In this document: positions 4,819-40,848 of the stretch, piece by piece
Position numbering within the stretch: the stretch's first letter is position 1
How the letters are laid out: the number at the start of each line of letters is the position of its first letter
Sequence record: PQ659294.1
DNA length: 45,053 nucleotides
Origin: Escherichia phage vB_ecoS_OzMSK
Reading direction: 5' to 3' (one strand)
The notes under the pieces: model-generated
What the model saw: the letters and a program-made list of their open reading frames with translations, nothing else
Told to the model about the DNA's origin: nothing
Database searches by the model: none
Program-made: the position numbers and the translations under genes

Positions 4819-6384
4819 ATGTCTTTAGTGTGGGAAGAAATGACCATTCAGGAGAAGATGGCGGTTAAGGCTATATCAGAACACAGCTTCGAGGGTTTCC
4901 TTCGGTGCTGGTTTTCAATAACCCAGGGAGAACGATACATCCCTAACTGGCATCACAAGTACTTGTGCAGAATCATTGACGAGATTATCGCAGGAGAGCG
5001 CAAGGATACCATCATTAACATAGCGCCGGGCAGCGGAAAGACGGAAATCGCTTCAATACACTTCCCGGCATACTCGATGGTTAAGCTGAAGAAGGTGAGG
5101 AATCTTAACATCTCATTTGCCGACTCCCTTGTAAAGCGCAACTCGAAACGCGTACGTGACCTTATCAAGTCTCAAGAATTTCAATCACTCTGGCCTTGCA
5201 AGTTTGGCACATGCAAGGATGATGAGCTTCAGGTTCTTGATGAGAGCGGAAAGGTTAGGTTTGAGTCAATATCAAAGGCGGCTGGAGGCCAGATTACTGG
5301 TGCTCGCGGTGGCTACATAACTGAAAATTACAGTGGTGCGGTGTTGTTAGATGATTTCGATAAGCCCGCAGATATGCTTTCTCCGGTTTATCGAGCTAAT
5401 AACCACGTAATGCTCAAGAACACAATTCGATCACGTCGCGCTAGCTCTGTAAAAGGAAAAGCGACACCAATCATTTCGATACAGCAGCGTCTGCACGTCA
5501 ATGACTCAACCTGGTTCATGATGGAAGGTGGGATGGGCATCGATTTTGACTTGATTAAGATACCAGCGCTAGTTACTGAGGATTACATCGACTCGCTCCC
5601 TGACTGGATTAAAGAGCAGTTTGCGGAAGACGTTTTAAGCAGTGAGTACATTGAGAGAGATGGCGTAAAGTACTATAGCTACTTCCCAAAAAAGGAGTCA
5701 GTAAACGACCTGGTTGCGATGTGGGATAGTGACCCGTACACTTTTCTCAGCCAGTATCAACAAGAACCAGTAGCACTTGGTGGCAATCTGATTAACGTAG
5801 ACTGGTTCCAGCGTCTTAGTGATACATTCAGGCATCCAGCCAAGTACGATTATAGATTTATAACTTGCGATACTGCGATGACCACAAAGAGTTATAGTGA
5901 CTTCTCTGTACTTCAGTTGTGGGGATATAAGGATGCTAAGATTTACCTGATAGACCAGCGCAGGGGTAAATGGGAGGCTCCAGAATTAGAGGCTGAATTA
6001 CTTGACTTCGAGAAGAAATCAAGGGCAACCAGTCAGTCAGATGGCATCCTACGAAAAATCATTATCGAGAAGAAAGCCTCTGGTATCGGCTTGATTCAAT
6101 CTGCAGGCAGGGTAATGCGAACTCCGATAGAGCCATACGTACCGGATAGCGACAAGCTGACTCGCGTGATGAGCGCGTTACCACAGATCAAGGCTGGTAA
6201 CGTCGTCCTTCCAGAGTCTGCGCCATGGCTAAATGGATTGCTTACGGAGGTTGCGGCTTTTACGGCAGATGACTCGCATAAGCACGACGACCAAATTGAC
6301 TGTCTAACAATGGCAGTAAACCTTGTTCTCAATATCGCGGATGATCCTAAGGCACGACTAATGCGCATAGCGGGAATTAAATAG
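4819..6384 (+). CDS. terminase large subunit
   Basis: 521 aa; Walker A-like NIAPGSGKT near the N-terminus; C-terminal nuclease-like acidic residues; position before portal. Confidence 0.85.
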   Translation: MSLVWEEMTIQEKMAVKAISEHSFEGFLRCWFSITQGERYIPNWHHKYLCRIIDEIIAGERKDTIINIAPGSGKTEIASIHFPAYSMVKLKKVRNLNISFADSLVKRNSKRVRDLIKSQEFQSLWPCKFGTCKDDELQVLDESGKVRFESISKAAGGQITGARGGYITENYSGAVLLDDFDKPADMLSPVYRANNHVMLKNTIRSRRASSVKGKATPIISIQQRLHVNDSTWFMMEGGMGIDFDLIKIPALVTEDYIDSLPDWIKEQFAEDVLSSEYIERDGVKYYSYFPKKESVNDLVAMWDSDPYTFLSQYQQEPVALGGNLINVDWFQRLSDTFRHPAKYDYRFITCDTAMTTKSYSDFSVLQLWGYKDAKIYLIDQRRGKWEAPELEAELLDFEKKSRATSQSDGILRKIIIEKKASGIGLIQSAGRVMRTPIEPYVPDSDKLTRVMSALPQIKAGNVVLPESAPWLNGLLTEVAAFTADDSHKHDDQIDCLTMAVNLVLNIADDPKARLMRIAGIK

Positions 6385-38133: not shown

Positions 38134-38607
38134 ATGATTTACGTATTTGATATCGATGGAACTATAGCTAATAATGAGCATAGAAGTAACCTCTTGCCAT
38201 TCAGCGACCTTCACTTGACTTCAAGTTGGAAGGATTACAATAAAGCCTGTTCTGGAGACTCACCAATAATTCCAATGATAAACATGATGAATACGTTATC
38301 CGACTCATCGCCAGTTTACATCATGACCTCAAGAAGTGATGAAGTTGAATGGAGGACTCTTGAGTGGCTTAAGGATAATGAGGTTGAGTATGATTCGATA
38401 TACATGAGAAGTCGATATGACAACCGAAAAGATTACAAAATAAAAGAGGAATGGCTTAATGAAATCAGTGGTGGCGATAAAAGCAATGTGATTATTTTTG
38501 AAGATAACCCACAAGTAATTAAGCACCTAAGAAGTTGCGGATACACCGTTATGGCTGTATGTGAATATGAAGACCTACCTAAAGACTGCGAATCTCACGG
38601 AGAATGA
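38134..38607 (+). CDS. HAD-family phosphatase (putative nucleotidase)
   Basis: N-terminal HAD motif I VFDIDGTIA; 157 aa; adjacent to the dNMP kinase gene. Confidence 0.5.
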   Translation: MIYVFDIDGTIANNEHRSNLLPFSDLHLTSSWKDYNKACSGDSPIIPMINMMNTLSDSSPVYIMTSRSDEVEWRTLEWLKDNEVEYDSIYMRSRYDNRKDYKIKEEWLNEISGGDKSNVIIFEDNPQVIKHLRSCGYTVMAVCEYEDLPKDCESHGE

Positions 38608-39161
38608 AAATGACTAAATTATTTATCCTTAATGGCCCAGCTGGAGTTGGCAAGGACACTATAGCGGATATGATGGTTGAGACTGGTGTCGCAAAAGAAA
38701 AGGTATCATTCAAGTCACCAATATTTAGAGTTGCAAAAGGAATGCTATCAAGCGATGAATTTGATGAATTCATCAAGAATTACGACAATAGAGACTATAA
38801 GGAATCACCTCATAGATTTCTTGTCGGTATGACAGTTCGTGAATTTATGATTTGGATTAGCGAGTCTGTAATGAAGCCAGCCTTTGGTGATGATGTTTTC
38901 GGTAAAAGGCTAGCGCAGTCACTTGGTGATGGCTGCTACATTTGCGCTGACGGTGGATTTGCTAGCGAGATTAAGCCACTGATCGACGCTGGTGTTGAGG
39001 TCACGTTAATCAGATTGCATAGGGCAGGGTACACATTTGATGGCGATAGTCGCTCATACATTCACGGGGTGTGCGCAAGAGAAATTGATGTTCGTGTTGT
39101 TGATTGTGATATTAATGGAACATCAGCATTGGTAAGGCACGTAATAAATAGCACAAATTGA
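38604..39161 (+). CDS. deoxynucleoside monophosphate kinase (P-loop kinase, putative)
   Basis: N-terminal P-loop ILNGPAGVGKDT; size and motif typical of phage dNMP kinases; C-terminus INSTN is encoded by a class-A motif copy. Confidence 0.55.
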   Translation: MKMTKLFILNGPAGVGKDTIADMMVETGVAKEKVSFKSPIFRVAKGMLSSDEFDEFIKNYDNRDYKESPHRFLVGMTVREFMIWISESVMKPAFGDDVFGKRLAQSLGDGCYICADGGFASEIKPLIDAGVEVTLIRLHRAGYTFDGDSRSYIHGVCAREIDVRVVDCDINGTSALVRHVINSTN

Positions 39162-39232: not shown

Positions 39233-39409
39233 ATGACTAAAATGATTTATTGCACCAAAAACAACTCCAAGACTCTGCCATTTACAGTTAACCAGCCGTA
39301 CAACGCAGAGTACCAGGGCGATGGATATTACAAGATTTATGGAGACGATATGACGCACATCTTAGCGCCGATTGATGGTTCGTTGGTTGAATTTATTATC
39401 GCTGACTAG
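39233..39409 (+). CDS. hypothetical small protein (58 aa)
   Basis: ATG with GAGG RBS after a class-A cassette, followed by a strong terminator. Confidence 0.4.
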   Translation: MTKMIYCTKNNSKTLPFTVNQPYNAEYQGDGYYKIYGDDMTHILAPIDGSLVEFIIAD

Positions 39410-39435
39410 CGCAGCAAAAACATAATGTTACGAAC

Positions 39436-39463
39436 GGGGAGCCTTTTGGCTCCCTTTTTTTAT
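39436..39463 (+). terminator. rho-independent terminator (GGGGAGCCTTTTGGCTCCC + T7)
   Basis: GC hairpin plus T-run. Confidence 0.7.
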
Positions 39464-39539
39464 GCTTCTTTTCCGAGCGGTGCTAATGTATCATTCTTTT
39501 ATTAACTTAAGAATTGACAAATACATAAAGGTGGATCAC

Positions 39540-39755
39540 ATGAGGGAAGTAATCAACGCCGCTACAGCATCAACTGGCGGTGCTGCGTTTACTGGAGCGG
39601 CAACTGGTCAAATGACTATAGCAATAATCAGCCTTATCGCTCTAATCATTTTTGGAGCTTGGGGTGCTTACTGGAAGTATAAGGATAGTCAAGCTATCAG
39701 GCGGGCGCTTGAATCTGGAGACTTGAAAATAGCAATCAATATAAGGAGCAAATAA
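39540..39755 (+). CDS. holin (71 aa)
   Basis: Hydrophobic core TIAIISLIALIIFGAWGAYW with charged C-terminus; immediately upstream of endolysin; AGGTGG RBS. Confidence 0.55.
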   Translation: MREVINAATASTGGAAFTGAATGQMTIAIISLIALIIFGAWGAYWKYKDSQAIRRALESGDLKIAINIRSK

Positions 39756-40241
39756 ATGAAGCAGAAGCTGCTAATTGGCGCGGCTACGGCTGCGGCGATA
39801 TACATCGCAGCGCCGCTTGTTGAGCTCGTTGAGGGTGTGGAGAATAATCCTTACATGGACATTGCCGGAATCCCTACGGTATGTTCCGGTATTACTGGAC
39901 CTGATGTTGTTTGGGGTAAGACTTACAGCAATAGGGAGTGCCGGAACCTACTGGAGAAGCACATCCAGATTCATGCTAAGTATGTTCAGGATGCGGTTAC
40001 TTACCCAATTGCACAGCAGACAAGGGCAGCGTTAATTAGCTTTAGCTACAACGTTGGTGGTCATGCCATGAAGAACTCAACGGCAGTTCGACTTATCAAC
40101 CAGGGTAAAGTGGAGCAGGGTTGCAAGGCTCTCGGAATGTGGAATAAGGCTACCGTTAATGGAAAAAAGGTTGTCGTTAAGGGTTTGGTGAATCGCAGGA
40201 ATGAGGAGATTAAGTTATGCTTAAGCGGATTGCAGCGTTAG
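39756..40241 (+). CDS. endolysin, T4-lysozyme-like (GH24) with probable N-terminal SAR signal-anchor
   Basis: Catalytic-triad spacing E-x8-D-x5-T (ELVEGVENNPYMDIAGIPTVCSGIT); Ala/Gly-rich weakly hydrophobic N-terminus LLIGAATAAAIYIAAPLV. Confidence 0.75.
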   Translation: MKQKLLIGAATAAAIYIAAPLVELVEGVENNPYMDIAGIPTVCSGITGPDVVWGKTYSNRECRNLLEKHIQIHAKYVQDAVTYPIAQQTRAALISFSYNVGGHAMKNSTAVRLINQGKVEQGCKALGMWNKATVNGKKVVVKGLVNRRNEEIKLCLSGLQR

Positions 40242-40606
40242 TAATGTGCGTAGCTTTATCTGGATGTTCAGCAACATCTGCTCTGACCGGCTTGATTGGC
40301 AGTAAGCCAGAGATTAGCGCTCAAGCTGGTGCAGAGAACAATAAGATTGGGGTTGGGTTAACTAATAAGGTTGACTCCAGTAACTCAAGTGATGCTTCCG
40401 TTAAGGATTCTAGTGTTGGCTCTCTGGATAGCTCTAGCGGCAAAAAGACCTCTGACAACTCGATTAAGGCATCCACAATAACTGCTGAAAAGATTGAGAT
40501 CACCAATAACGACTCTTCCGCTCTTCCGTGGATTGGAACAGGGGCTATGGGGTTGCTGGTTTTTATTCTCCTGGCAGTAATCTTAAGACGTAAAAAAGCC
40601 CCTTGA
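40217..40606 (+). CDS. unimolecular spanin (T1 gp11-type)
   Basis: N-terminal lipoprotein signal with lipobox LSGC, Ser/Asn-rich periplasmic region, C-terminal transmembrane helix AMGLLVFILLAVIL plus RRKK; overlaps the endolysin 3' end. Confidence 0.75.
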   Translation: MLKRIAALVMCVALSGCSATSALTGLIGSKPEISAQAGAENNKIGVGLTNKVDSSNSSDASVKDSSVGSLDSSSGKKTSDNSIKASTITAEKIEITNNDSSALPWIGTGAMGLLVFILLAVILRRKKAP

Positions 40607-40626
40607 TAGGGGCTGTATATTTTTAT
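40592..40626. terminator. terminator hairpin (GCCCCTTGATAGGGGC) between the convergent lysis and right-arm transcripts
   Basis: GC hairpin with A-run upstream and T-rich downstream. Confidence 0.5.
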
Positions 40627-40638
40627 CTACAACTAACT

Positions 40639-40848
40639 TTAAAGTGGGATTAACTGCATTGATTCCACTCTAATTTCAATCCCGCGCACAAGTCCTTCCA
40701 GGCTTGTGGTGATGAATGACTCCGATACGTATCCACCATCAGAGATGGTAGCGATAATGTCACCATCACCCTGCTCTTTAATATCCACGGTCAGGAGGTT
40801 GGCTTTTGCTTTTGCAAGTACTGCCATCAGTTTTTCTACTGTGCTCAT
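40639..40848 (-). CDS. hypothetical protein (69 aa)
   Basis: ATG 40848 with AGGAG RBS (track ORF extends to 40896). Confidence 0.4.
   Translation of the reverse strand: MSTVEKLMAVLAKAKANLLTVDIKEQGDGDIIATISDGGYVSESFITTSLEGLVRGIEIRVESMQLIPL

What the first reader, a model, noticed from the sequence alone, without database searches (positions are those of the whole stretch)
39540..40606. Lysis cassette with probable SAR endolysin and unimolecular spanin
The endolysin has the T4-lysozyme catalytic spacing preceded by an Ala/Gly-rich weakly hydrophobic N-terminus typical of signal-anchor-release endolysins, which would make the 71-aa holin a pinholin candidate. The third gene has both a lipobox (LSGC) and a C-terminal transmembrane helix in one polypeptide, the unimolecular-spanin architecture described for phage T1 gp11.
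Basis: partly seen in the sequence, partly recalled or inferred. Interest (0 to 1): 0.4.

Follow-up and report, generated by a model that had tools for sequence, protein, structure and literature searches.

The report
T1-type phage lysis cassette, ordinary
This is the standard three-gene host-bursting module of T1-like coliphages: a small holin, a membrane-tethered "SAR" lysozyme and a one-piece spanin. It is correctly read but already described for this phage family, so it is ordinary.

Summary
Window 39540-40606 holds three co-oriented genes: a 71-aa holin, a 161-aa GH24 lysozyme and a 129-aa lipoprotein with a C-terminal membrane helix.

- **Origin:** the window is Escherichia phage Msk (MW057918.1, an unannotated record), a T1-like phage of the Drexlerviridae.
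- **Orthology:** the three genes are syntenic orthologues of T1 gp13, gp12 and gp11 (58%, 46% and 40% identity). T1 gp11 is the experimentally defined prototype u-spanin.
- **Endolysin:** it has the E26-x8-D35-x5-T41 triad. Its Cys-free, Ala-rich N-terminal segment is as hydrophobic as the SAR domain of RrrD, the K-12 DLP12 prophage lysozyme that is nearly identical to the proven SAR endolysin R21.
- **Close relatives of the endolysin:** it is 93% identical to a protein deposited as "SAR endolysin". Its first 20 residues match 19 of 20 in 57_3Lys, which a 2026 preprint reports as lysing cells without a holin in an azide-sensitive (Sec-dependent) way.
- **Literature:** T1-like cassettes are already described as pinholin + SAR endolysin + u-spanin.
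- **Open point:** "pinholin" remains a prediction. The holin has no detectable similarity to the S21-type pinholin EssD, no dual start, and almost no loop between its weak N-terminal segment and its single strong membrane helix.

Verdict: real, correctly interpreted, already known, low interest.

The parts
39436..39455 (+). Intrinsic terminator (GGGGAGCC-TTTT-GGCTCCCT followed by a T-run) closing the upstream unit, just before the lysis cassette.
   Evidence: Terminator scan. A terminator at the same position is conserved in 7 aligned Drexlerviridae intergenic regions and is annotated in EC3a, T1 and Sushi.
39489..39494 (+). Possible -10 hexamer TATCAT of the cassette promoter. Low confidence, inferred only.
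   Evidence: A TA..AT hexamer sits at the same alignment column in Msk, EC3a, T1 (TAAAAT), Rogue1 and Sushi. No consensus sigma-70 promoter passed the scan between the terminator and the holin start.
39540..39755 (+). Holin, 71 aa, of the T1 gp13 family. It has a weakly hydrophobic Gly/Ala/Ser/Thr-rich N-terminal segment (residues 4-23, nt 39549-39608), one strong membrane helix (residues 25-45, nt 39612-39674) and a basic cytoplasmic tail (net +4).
   Evidence: PHROG 2877 'holin' at 2.1e-36. 58% identity to T1 gp13 over 71/71 residues. Hydropathy. Family alignment. RBS GGTGG at 39530-39534.
39756..40241 (+). Endolysin, 161 aa, a GH24/T4-lysozyme-type muramidase with an N-terminal signal-anchor (SAR-type) segment at residues 5-22 (nt 39768-39821). 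The catalytic residues are E26 (39831-39833), D35 (39858-39860) and T41 (39876-39878).
   Evidence: PF00959 at 2.5e-36. RrrD 4ZPU at 4e-28 and R21 3HDE at 2e-27. 46% identity to T1 gp12. 93% identity to the 'SAR endolysin' of vB_EcoS-12210I. Hydrophobicity benchmark. 57_3Lys experiments.
40217..40606 (+). Unimolecular spanin, 129 aa. It has a lipoprotein signal with lipobox LSGC (nt 40256-40267, Cys17), an 88-aa Ser-rich, Cys-free periplasmic domain, and a C-terminal membrane helix at residues 105-123 (nt 40529-40585) followed by RRKK.
   Evidence: PHROG 1804 'Rz-like spanin' at 4e-49. 40% identity to T1 gp11, E = 2e-24. Feature table for 12 homologues. tblastn found 1124 phage records, many annotated as u-spanin.
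40597..40614 (.). Bidirectional intrinsic terminator (AGCCCCT-TGAT-AGGGGCT) overlapping the end of the spanin gene. It ends the cassette and the convergent minus-strand unit.
   Evidence: Terminator scan on both strands. Equivalent bidirectional terminators are annotated in EC3a, T1, Rogue1 and Sushi.

Best explanation
This is a self-contained late lysis operon of a T1-like siphophage, Escherichia phage Msk. It attacks the three envelope layers in order.

1. **Holin.** The 71-aa holin accumulates in the inner membrane with its C-terminus in the cytoplasm. At a set time it triggers and depolarises the membrane. Whether it makes small holes ('pinholin') is inferred, not shown.
2. **Endolysin export.** The endolysin is exported by the Sec system ahead of time. 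It is held inactive at the periplasmic face of the inner membrane by its uncleaved, weakly hydrophobic N-terminal segment. This segment is an R21-type, Cys-free SAR domain that ends three residues before the catalytic Glu26.
3. **Endolysin activation.** Depolarisation lets the segment slip out of the bilayer. The enzyme refolds and cuts the glycan strands of the peptidoglycan.
4. **Spanin.** The u-spanin is lipid-anchored in the outer membrane through Cys17 and embedded in the inner membrane through its C-terminal helix. It is held in check by the intact peptidoglycan meshwork. Once the wall is gone it disrupts the outer membrane, most likely by fusing it with the inner membrane.

**Shown here:** gene structure, homology, synteny and topology signals.
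**Shown elsewhere:** T1 gp11 complements the lambda Rz/Rz1 defect. R21 behaves as a SAR endolysin. 57_3Lys causes Sec-dependent lysis.
**Inferred:** non-cleavage of the anchor, hole size, and the fusion mechanism.
For: **Identity and orthology.**
- The window is 100% identical to phage Msk, and its relatives are Drexlerviridae/Braunvirinae.
- The three genes are orthologous and syntenic with T1 gp13, gp12 and gp11.
- The same order appears in 12 genomes from 7 or more genera.

**Family assignments.**
- R21 and RrrD are the best solved structures, and the catalytic triad aligns with theirs.

**Topology signals.**
- All three proteins obey the positive-inside rule. The endolysin has MKQK before its anchor and E23/E26/E29 after it. 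The holin tail is net +4. The spanin has RRKK after its helix.
- For the endolysin anchor, KD = 2.09 and summed dG is about 1.2, with 50% Gly/Ala/Ser/Thr. For RrrD the values are 2.27, 0.3 and 61%.
- The anchor contains no Cys.
- The only -3/-1 site at the periplasmic end (I17-A18-A19) is followed by Pro20.

**Spanin features.**
- The spanin has the LSGC lipobox, Ser at +2 and no periplasmic Cys.
- Its periplasmic domain is 85-90 aa in all 12 homologues.

**Transcription.** The cassette is bracketed by conserved terminators.

**Literature.**
- T1-family u-spanins sit in pinholin/SAR-endolysin cassettes, and gp11 complements lambda RzRz1 (PMC6139136).
- T1, Sushi and TLS cassettes are described the same way (PMC4559738, PMC11447400, PMC13164509).
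- 57_3Lys has the N-terminus MKQKLLISAATAAAIYIAAP and catalytic residues E26/D35/T41. Lysis on its induction is abolished by 10 mM azide (bioRxiv 10.64898/2026.09.09.750462).
Against: - No TMHMM, SignalP or LipoP run was possible. Hydrophobicity was judged with crude window sums, using a Hessa-type scale recalled from memory.
- The preprint says SignalP 6.0 flags the near-identical 57_3Lys N-terminus as a signal. Non-cleavage was not shown there.
- BLASTP similarity to RrrD begins only at residue 25. The anchor is therefore similar in character rather than in sequence, and it lacks R21's roughly 9-residue linker before the catalytic Glu.
- One curated record (Citrobacter phage Sazh) calls the orthologue a 'putative soluble endolysin'.
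- T1's own anchor is much weaker, with KD 1.39.
- The holin has no detectable similarity to the S21-type pinholin EssD (E = 1.2). The T1 RefSeq note says 'single transmembrane domain'. Only 2-3 residues separate the weak N-terminal segment from the strong helix.
- The predicted beta-rich spanin periplasmic domain could not be confirmed, because the single-sequence AF2 model was low-confidence coil.
Confidence: 0.85

Rival explanations
1. The endolysin N-terminus is a conventional cleavable Sec signal peptide. The enzyme would be secreted as a soluble periplasmic protein and controlled in some other way.
For: The Ala-rich centre (A12-A13-A14) satisfies the -3/-1 rule. Cleavage there would leave about 11 residues before the catalytic Glu, as in T4 lysozyme (sequence). 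Several orthologues have A-L-A or A-I-A just before the conserved Pro. SignalP 6.0 reportedly recognises the near-identical 57_3Lys N-terminus as a signal. Azide sensitivity fits any Sec substrate.
Against: The uninterrupted hydrophobic stretch is 18 residues (L5-V22), which is membrane-spanning length. The AAA motif would therefore lie mid-bilayer and out of reach of signal peptidase. The site at the periplasmic end is blocked by Pro at +1. R21/RrrD and P1 Lyz also contain internal AxA motifs and are established as uncleaved (established knowledge; Xu 2004 and Park 2007, as cited). A freely active secreted muramidase would lyse the cell prematurely. The hydrophobicity is equal to that of the RrrD SAR domain.
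Confidence: 0.08
2. This is a canonical system. The endolysin is a soluble cytoplasmic enzyme whose hydrophobic N-terminal helix is simply part of the fold, and the holin forms large holes to release it.
For: The Sazh orthologue is annotated 'putative soluble endolysin' by a curating group. T1's own N-terminal segment is only weakly hydrophobic (KD 1.39, summed dG about 4.8). In R21 the released SAR helix is indeed part of the active fold.
Against: Msk's segment is at the strongly hydrophobic end of the family (KD 2.09) and has a basic n-region. 57_3Lys lyses cells without any holin, and azide blocks this. Four papers and many records call this family SAR.
Confidence: 0.04
3. The holin is not an S21-like two-helix pinholin. 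It would be a single-pass N-out/C-in protein, or a large-hole holin, whose conserved Gly/Ala-rich N-tail is periplasmic from the start. The SAR endolysin and u-spanin readings stay as stated.
For: The T1 RefSeq note says 'single transmembrane domain'. The N-terminal segment has KD 0.86 and summed dG about +6, far from a stable helix. Only G-Q separates it from the strong helix. There is no similarity to EssD and no dual-start motif in Msk. SAR endolysins are known to work with non-pinholin partners, namely P1 LydA and the Mu releasin (PMC9025707 and PMC9239132, listed).
Against: EssD (S21-type) TMD1 scores just as weakly on the same crude scale (dG about +6.5, KD 0.48), yet it is an established transient TMD. 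The overall layout resembles S21 68: a short charged N-terminus, a G/A/S/T-rich segment, a strong helix with a small-residue face and a basic tail. The Young-lab survey and genome notes class T1-like holins as class II pinholins.
Confidence: 0.3

Closest known systems
Phage T1 lysis cassette: gp13 holin, gp12 endolysin, gp11 u-spanin (Drexlerviridae)
   Same: It has the same three genes in the same order, flanked by the same terminators, with the DUF7244 gene upstream and the gp10-like and DUF3987 helicase genes convergent downstream. Identities are 58%, 46% and 40%. The LSGC lipobox is identical.
   Different: The Msk endolysin and spanin genes overlap by 25 nt, against 1 nt in T1. Msk's endolysin anchor is markedly more hydrophobic (KD 2.09 against 1.39). 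Msk's spanin periplasmic domain is more Ser-rich (20 Ser in the 87 residues after Cys17). Msk carries PNK-phosphatase and kinase genes upstream and an extra 69-aa gene downstream.
Phage 21 R21 / DLP12 RrrD SAR endolysin (PDB 3HDE, 3HDF, 4ZPU)
   Same: It has the GH24 fold family, the E-x8-D-x5-T triad, four conserved Cys positions in the body and a Cys-free Ala/Gly-rich N-terminal anchor of equal hydrophobicity. Identity is 43% over the catalytic domain.
   Different: The anchor is not alignable by BLASTP. In Msk the hydrophobic stretch ends 3 residues before the catalytic Glu, whereas R21 has a GPSGNDGL linker of about 9 residues. The refolding step may therefore differ in detail.
57_3Lys of phage vB-EcoS_57-3 (Veterinaerplatzvirus); 'SAR endolysin' of vB_EcoS-12210I
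   Same: The first 20 residues match 19 of 20, and the E26/D35/T41 numbering is the same. Msk is 93% identical to the 12210I protein. 57_3Lys shows azide-sensitive lysis without a holin.
   Different: There are a few substitutions (G8 against S/T8, and others).
Phage 21 pinholin S21 68 / DLP12 EssD
   Same: Both are 71 aa and are the first gene of a cassette that has a SAR endolysin. Both have a weakly hydrophobic G/A/S/T-rich N-terminal segment, a strong second helix and a basic tail.
   Different: There is no detectable sequence similarity (E = 1.2). There is no 8-10-residue periplasmic loop and no dual-start antiholin in Msk. The partner spanin is unimolecular rather than Rz/Rz1-type.

Membership tests
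T1 gp11-type unimolecular spanin | N-terminal lipoprotein signal with a lipobox and an acylatable Cys | tested here: met
   The signal is MLKRIAALVMCVA-LSGC, with Cys17. It is the same LSGC lipobox as T1 gp11.
T1 gp11-type unimolecular spanin | Outer-membrane sorting (no Asp at +2) | tested here: met
   The +2 residue is Ser. It is Ser or Ala in all 12 homologues.
T1 gp11-type unimolecular spanin | C-terminal transmembrane helix with a cytoplasmic basic tail | tested here: met
   Residues 105-123 have KD 2.4-2.6 and summed dG -2.6, and are followed by RRKK. The AF2 single-sequence model gives a helix at 105-126, with block-mean pLDDT 81 for residues 111-120.
T1 gp11-type unimolecular spanin | Sequence homology to T1 gp11 | tested here: met
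   BLASTP gives 40% identity at E = 2e-24. PHROG 1804 matches at 4e-49.
T1 gp11-type unimolecular spanin | No periplasmic Cys, and last gene of the lysis cassette | tested here: met
   There are 0 Cys in the 88-aa periplasmic domain. The gene follows the endolysin and ends at a terminator.
T1 gp11-type unimolecular spanin | Beta-strand-rich periplasmic domain | tested here: inconclusive
   The single-sequence AF2 model shows low-confidence coil there (pLDDT about 50). Alternating hydrophobic/polar runs such as IKASTITAEKIEIT are only suggestive.
T1 gp11-type unimolecular spanin | Complements the lambda Rz/Rz1 lysis defect | not testable with these tools
   This has been shown for T1 gp11 only (PMC6139136).
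SAR endolysin, R21 type (Cys-free SAR, class II) | GH24 / T4-lysozyme catalytic domain with the E-x8-D-x5-T triad | tested here: met
   PF00959 matches at 2.5e-36. E26/D35/T41 align to R21 E35/D44/T50.
SAR endolysin, R21 type (Cys-free SAR, class II) | N-terminal membrane-spanning-length segment, weakly hydrophobic and rich in Gly/Ala/Ser/Thr, after a basic n-region | tested here: met
   The segment is MKQK + L5-V22 (18 aa), with 50% G/A/S/T and KD 2.09. RrrD scores 61% and 2.27. The maximum KD over a 19-residue window is 1.82, above the classical 1.6 threshold. This rests on crude scales, not TMHMM.
SAR endolysin, R21 type (Cys-free SAR, class II) | No Cys in the SAR segment (this distinguishes it from the P1 Lyz type) | tested here: met
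   Residues 1-42 contain no Cys.
SAR endolysin, R21 type (Cys-free SAR, class II) | Anchor not cleaved by signal peptidase | not testable with these tools
   This is inference only. The periplasmic-end site I17-A18-A19 is followed by Pro20, and the central AAA would be buried in the bilayer. It was not shown for 57_3Lys either.
SAR endolysin, R21 type (Cys-free SAR, class II) | Sec-dependent export, holin-independent lysis, and release on depolarisation | not testable with these tools
   It is reported for 57_3Lys, whose N-terminus is 19/20 identical: 10 mM azide almost completely abolishes lysis. Release on depolarisation has not been tested for this clade.
Pinholin (S21 68 type, class II holin) | Sequence homology to S21/EssD | tested here: not met
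   BLASTP against EssD gives E = 1.2. There is no Pfam or NCBIfam holin family hit.
Pinholin (S21 68 type, class II holin) | Two TMDs, the first being SAR-like | tested here: inconclusive
   The N-terminal segment (residues 4-20) has KD 0.86 and dG about +6.1, similar to EssD TMD1 (0.48, +6.5). However, only G23-Q24 separate it from the strong helix at 25-45. The T1 record says single TMD, while the Sushi and TLS papers say two.
Pinholin (S21 68 type, class II holin) | Dual-start holin/antiholin | tested here: not met
   There is a single Met at the N-terminus (MREV...), and the next Met is M25 without an RBS. Some relatives (Sazh, TLS, AAS23) do have two Met.
Pinholin (S21 68 type, class II holin) | Forms small (nm-scale) holes that depolarise the membrane but do not pass an endolysin | not testable with these tools
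   No experimental study of a T1-family holin was found in the library.
T1 gp13 holin family (PHROG 2877) | Sequence homology and position as first gene of the cassette | tested here: met
   PHROG 2877 matches at 2.1e-36 over 71/71 positions. Identity to T1 gp13 is 58%. tblastn finds 790 phage records; those listed are overwhelmingly T1-like siphophages.

The most novel reading that the evidence does not exclude
The T1-family holin, Msk's included, may be a holin class of its own rather than an S21-like pinholin. In this reading it is a single-pass N-out/C-in protein. Its highly conserved Gly-Gly-containing N-tail, joined to the only real helix by two residues, would act from the periplasmic side. 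It would work with a SAR endolysin whose anchor abuts the catalytic Glu directly, so the anchor itself would mask the active site. That would be a distinct solution to lysis timing, shared by several hundred Drexlerviridae.
Probability: 0.25. Interest if true: 0.3.

Novelty: already known. Interest (0 to 1): 0.08.

Why it matters
It matters little beyond annotation. The deposited Msk record carries no annotation, so these three genes can now be labelled holin (T1 gp13 family), SAR endolysin (R21 type) and u-spanin (T1 gp11 family).

The only open scientific point is the T1-family holin. It is found in about 790 phage records, and its topology and hole size have never been tested experimentally, as far as the searched library shows.

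The comparative table also explains why databases disagree on whether this endolysin clade is "SAR" or "soluble". Anchor hydrophobicity varies widely across the family (KD 1.39-2.30), and Msk lies at the clearly membrane-competent end.

Tried and rejected
- **AlphaFold2, single sequence.** The endolysin model had mean pLDDT 43.6 and was unusable, so no fold search was run. The spanin model had mean pLDDT 57.9, and only the two terminal helices were credible. I judged the 13-CPU-hour homologue search unjustified for an ordinary finding.
- **Promoter scan.** No consensus sigma-70 promoter was found between the upstream terminator and the holin. The TTGACA at 39514-39519 has no usable -10 because it would overlap the start codon, so I rejected it. 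Only a conserved TATCAT-like hexamer emerged from the intergenic alignment.
- **Family searches.** Pfam and NCBIfam gave nothing meaningful for the holin or the spanin.
- **Holin against EssD.** BLASTP found no homology.
- **Literature.** The J Virol 2018 paper on T1 gp11 localisation (PMC6206483) is not held. Two searches found no experimental work on a T1-type holin.
- **Hidden two-component spanin.** I considered and rejected this. The only embedded alternative-frame ORF in the spanin gene (40371-40481, 36 aa, TTG start) has no Cys and therefore no lipobox.
- **Longer holin ORF.** I rejected the 97-aa ORF from 39462 as the holin. Its extension is not conserved and covers the RBS region.
- **Initial taxonomic guess.** My first guess from memory, that the relatives were Dhillonvirus, was wrong. 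The records place them in Drexlerviridae/Braunvirinae.
Full report
**Origin of the window.** The region 39400-40700 is 100% identical to Escherichia phage Msk (MW057918.1). That record is 45,053 bp, the same length as the window, and has no annotation. It is 88-91% identical to about 80 coliphages whose records place them in Drexlerviridae, subfamily Braunvirinae (Guelphvirus EC3a, Veterinaerplatzvirus 12210I). The finding is therefore in a T1-like siphophage.

**Check of the observation.** ORF listing and direct reading give three co-oriented genes exactly at the stated limits.

- **Holin, 39540-39755 (71 aa).** It has an ATG start with GGTGG five bases upstream.
- **Endolysin, 39756-40241 (161 aa).** Its ATG directly follows the holin stop codon, and AAGGAG lies upstream.
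- **Third gene, 40217-40606 (129 aa).** It overlaps the end of the endolysin gene by 25 nt, and GAGGAG lies upstream.
- **Rejected alternative start.** The 97-aa ORF starting at 39462 is not the holin. T1 gp13 aligns 71/71 without gaps from the 39540 start, and the extension is not conserved.

Profile searches show these are real genes.

| Protein | Match | E-value |
|---|---|---|
| Holin | PHROG 2877 'holin' | 2.1e-36 |
| Endolysin | Pfam Phage_lysozyme | 2.5e-36 |
| Endolysin | PHROG 7 'endolysin' | 4.9e-48 |
| Third gene | PHROG 1804 'Rz-like spanin' | 4e-49 |

- The endolysin has E26-x8-D35-x5-T41.
- It has an Ala-rich N-terminus, MKQK-LLIGAATAAAIYIAAPLV.
- The third protein has the lipobox LSGC with Cys17.
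- It has a C-terminal hydrophobic helix at residues 105-123, followed by RRKK.

**Orthology with phage T1.** I fetched the T1 RefSeq record. Its genes 13 (holin, 71 aa), 12 (endolysin, 162 aa) and 11 (Rz-like spanin, 133 aa) lie in the same order. They sit between a small gp14 gene and a convergent gp10/helicase pair, just as in the window.

| Msk protein | T1 protein | Identity | E-value |
|---|---|---|---|
| Holin | gp13 | 58% | 5e-31 |
| Endolysin | gp12 | 46% | 5e-46 |
| Spanin | gp11 | 40% | 2e-24 |

I fetched the same cassette from ten further phages: EC3a, IME542, Supreme284, CS01, AAS23, tiwna, Rogue1, Shfl1, Sushi and Sazh. I aligned all three proteins. The order holin-endolysin-spanin is invariant. 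An upstream intrinsic terminator and a downstream bidirectional terminator are conserved too.

**The spanin.** In all 12 homologues the architecture is the same.

- Each has a basic n-region and a lipobox ([LV][SATY]GC).
- Each has Ser or Ala at +2, never Asp, so the protein is sorted to the outer membrane.
- The periplasmic domain is 85-90 residues and contains no cysteine.
- An 18-20-residue hydrophobic helix is followed by a basic tail.

This is the definition of the T1 gp11 u-spanin family given by Kongari et al. (PMC6139136). That paper also records that gp11 complements the lambda Rz/Rz1 defect, that the wild-type gp11 lipobox is LSGC, and that no u-spanin has a periplasmic Cys. tblastn finds 1,124 phage records with a homologue, many annotated as u-spanin. 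Membership in the gp11 family is therefore established by sequence. The predicted beta-rich character of the periplasmic domain could not be confirmed, because the single-sequence AF2 model gave only the two terminal helices with any confidence.

**The endolysin.** The best solved relatives are RrrD (4ZPU, 4e-28) and R21 (3HDE, 2e-27), the paradigm Cys-free SAR endolysin. The catalytic triad aligns with theirs. BLASTP against RrrD taken from the K-12 genome gives 43% identity over residues 25-160.

I benchmarked the N-terminal segment against RrrD. I used Kyte-Doolittle hydropathy and a Hessa-type scale recalled from memory, so these are rough numbers.

| Protein | Segment | Mean KD | Summed dG | Gly/Ala/Ser/Thr |
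|---|---|---|---|---|
| Msk | L5-V22 | 2.09 | about +1.2 | 50% |
| RrrD | A8-I25 | 2.27 | +0.3 | 61% |
| T1 gp12 | N6-L23 | 1.39 | +4.8 | 50% |

- Across the family KD ranges from 1.39 to 2.30. This probably explains why the same clade is annotated 'SAR endolysin' in some records and 'putative soluble endolysin' in Sazh. Msk is at the clearly membrane-competent end.
- The charge distribution fits a type II signal anchor, with K2 and K4 before the segment and E23, E26 and E29 after it.
- There is no Cys in the anchor, so this is the R21 type and not the P1 Lyz disulfide-caged type.

**Cleavable signal peptide or anchor.** This cannot be decided computationally here.

- The only -3/-1-compatible site at the periplasmic end (I17-A18-A19) is followed by Pro20, which blocks signal peptidase I. 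This is established knowledge.
- The central AAA motif would lie mid-bilayer in an 18-residue helix.
- R21 and P1 Lyz also contain internal AxA motifs and are not cleaved.

**Experimental support from a near-identical protein.** The Msk endolysin is 93% identical to the vB_EcoS-12210I protein deposited as 'SAR endolysin'. A September 2026 preprint (10.64898/2026.09.09.750462) characterises 57_3Lys from a Veterinaerplatzvirus.

- Its first 20 residues, MKQKLLISAATAAAIYIAAP, differ from Msk's at one position.
- The catalytic residues are numbered E26, D35 and T41, as here.
- Induction of the endolysin alone lyses cells.
- Sodium azide suppresses this progressively, almost completely at 10 mM.

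The authors themselves caution that azide is not specific. They did not demonstrate non-cleavage, and SignalP 6.0 flags the segment as a signal. The SAR reading is therefore well supported but not proven for this clade.

**A real difference from R21.** In Msk and all T1-like orthologues the hydrophobic stretch ends three residues before the catalytic Glu. R21 has a linker of about nine residues. While the anchor is embedded, the catalytic Glu would sit at the membrane surface. That alone could keep the enzyme inactive. This is inference.

**The holin.** The protein has four parts.

- A short charged N-terminus, M-R-E.
- A conserved, very weakly hydrophobic segment rich in Gly/Ala/Ser/Thr (residues 4-23). 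It has KD 0.86, a near-invariant GG at positions 13-14 (Rogue1 reads SG) and a conserved T/S-G-Q/E (S-D-N in Rogue1) at positions 22-24.
- One strong helix at residues 25-45, with KD 2.3 and a conserved FGxWGA motif.
- A basic amphipathic tail of net charge +4.

Published genome notes and the Young-lab spanin survey call T1-like holins class II pinholins with two TMDs. The T1 RefSeq note says 'single transmembrane domain'.

- **For the pinholin reading:** on my crude scale the N-terminal segment is about as weak as TMD1 of EssD, the S21-type pinholin (KD 0.48, dG +6.5), and that segment is an accepted transient TMD.
- **Against it:** there is no detectable sequence similarity to EssD (E = 1.2), no dual-start motif in Msk, and only two residues between the two segments.
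- **State of the literature:** I found no experimental study of any T1-family holin.
- **Logic:** a SAR endolysin does not require a pinholin. P1 and Mu pair SAR endolysins with other partners (papers listed).

'Pinholin candidate' is a fair label, and I put it at roughly 0.55-0.6. The N-out single-pass alternative is the main open rival.

**Mechanism.**
1. The cassette is transcribed as its own unit between two terminators. The promoter was not identified by consensus, although a conserved TATCAT-like -10 lies at 39489-39494.
2. The holin accumulates harmlessly and then triggers, collapsing the membrane potential.
3. The Sec-exported, membrane-tethered endolysin leaves the bilayer, refolds and degrades the murein.
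4. The u-spanin already bridges both membranes through the murein meshwork. It is released from that constraint and destroys the outer membrane, probably by membrane fusion, which is the model of PMC6139136.

Steps 2-4 are inferred by homology to experimentally studied relatives: R21, 57_3Lys and T1 gp11.

**Comparison and novelty.** Every element, and the combination, is already described for T1-like phages. Near-identical proteins are already annotated and partly characterised. What is new is only that this particular, unannotated record can now be labelled. Interest is low.

**Negative and failed attempts.** These are listed under 'tried and rejected'. The main ones were the low-confidence single-sequence AF2 models, the absence of a consensus promoter, the lack of Pfam or NCBIfam families for the holin and spanin, and one key paper that is not held.

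Noticed in passing
window 39233-39409 (+): A 58-aa gene immediately upstream of the cassette matches DUF7244 (PF23896) at 3.4e-29 and is the T1 gp14 equivalent. A 2026 paper (PMC13164509) describes this as a standalone SH3-like protein and proposes it as an auxiliary part of the Drexlerviridae lysis module. In Msk a strong terminator (39436-39455) separates it from the holin, so it is not co-transcribed in any simple way. The protein has no signal sequence.
   Followed up: partly
window 40639-40848 (-): A 69-aa gene (PHROG 14244, function unknown) sits between the bidirectional terminator after the spanin and another minus-strand terminator at 40944-40922. Similarity of related phages to Msk stops at about 40638, and EC3a has no gene here. 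Its only homologues in the phage collection (37 records, at most 64% identity) are those listed, 137-155 kb phages of Escherichia, Pectobacterium and Klebsiella, none of them T1-like. It looks like a horizontally acquired, moron-like insert.
   Followed up: partly
window 38134-39161 (+): A PNKP-type HAD phosphatase (PF25109, 1.7e-16) and a P-loop kinase-like protein (GPAGVGKDT motif, no Pfam hit) lie upstream of the DUF7244 gene. PMC13164509 says the polynucleotide-kinase/dNMP-kinase pair and the SH3 protein co-occur in only seven Drexlerviridae. Msk appears to be one of these uncommon combinations.
   Followed up: no
L014 (Citrobacter phage Sazh) 1614-2105, compared with L016 (vB_EcoS-12210I) 756-1241 and L003 (T1) 5094-5582: Database annotation of this single endolysin clade is inconsistent: 'putative soluble endolysin', 'SAR endolysin', 'endolysin' and 'lysin' all appear. 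Hydrophobicity of the N-terminal segment varies from KD 1.39 (T1, Shfl1) to 2.30 (CS01) across orthologues. Some members may therefore behave differently from others.
   Followed up: partly
window 39405-39435 and the equivalent positions in L002, L004, L003, L009, L011, L008: A conserved motif (AACAT..nTT[AG]C[AG]A) lies immediately upstream of the pre-holin terminator in seven divergent Drexlerviridae. It is better conserved than the surrounding intergenic DNA. Its function is unknown. It overlaps or follows the stop codon of the upstream gene.
   Followed up: no
L012 (Klebsiella phage P6a) 1501-1905; L013 (Pantoea phage LIMEzero) 1474-2040: Homologues of the T1-type u-spanin also occur in 43-44 kb phages. 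One of these, LIMEzero, is filed under Autographiviridae. In these phages the gene sits next to the large terminase gene and apart from the endolysin. The spanin gene therefore moves between phage families independently of the holin; all the listed holin hits are T1-like siphophages.
   Followed up: no
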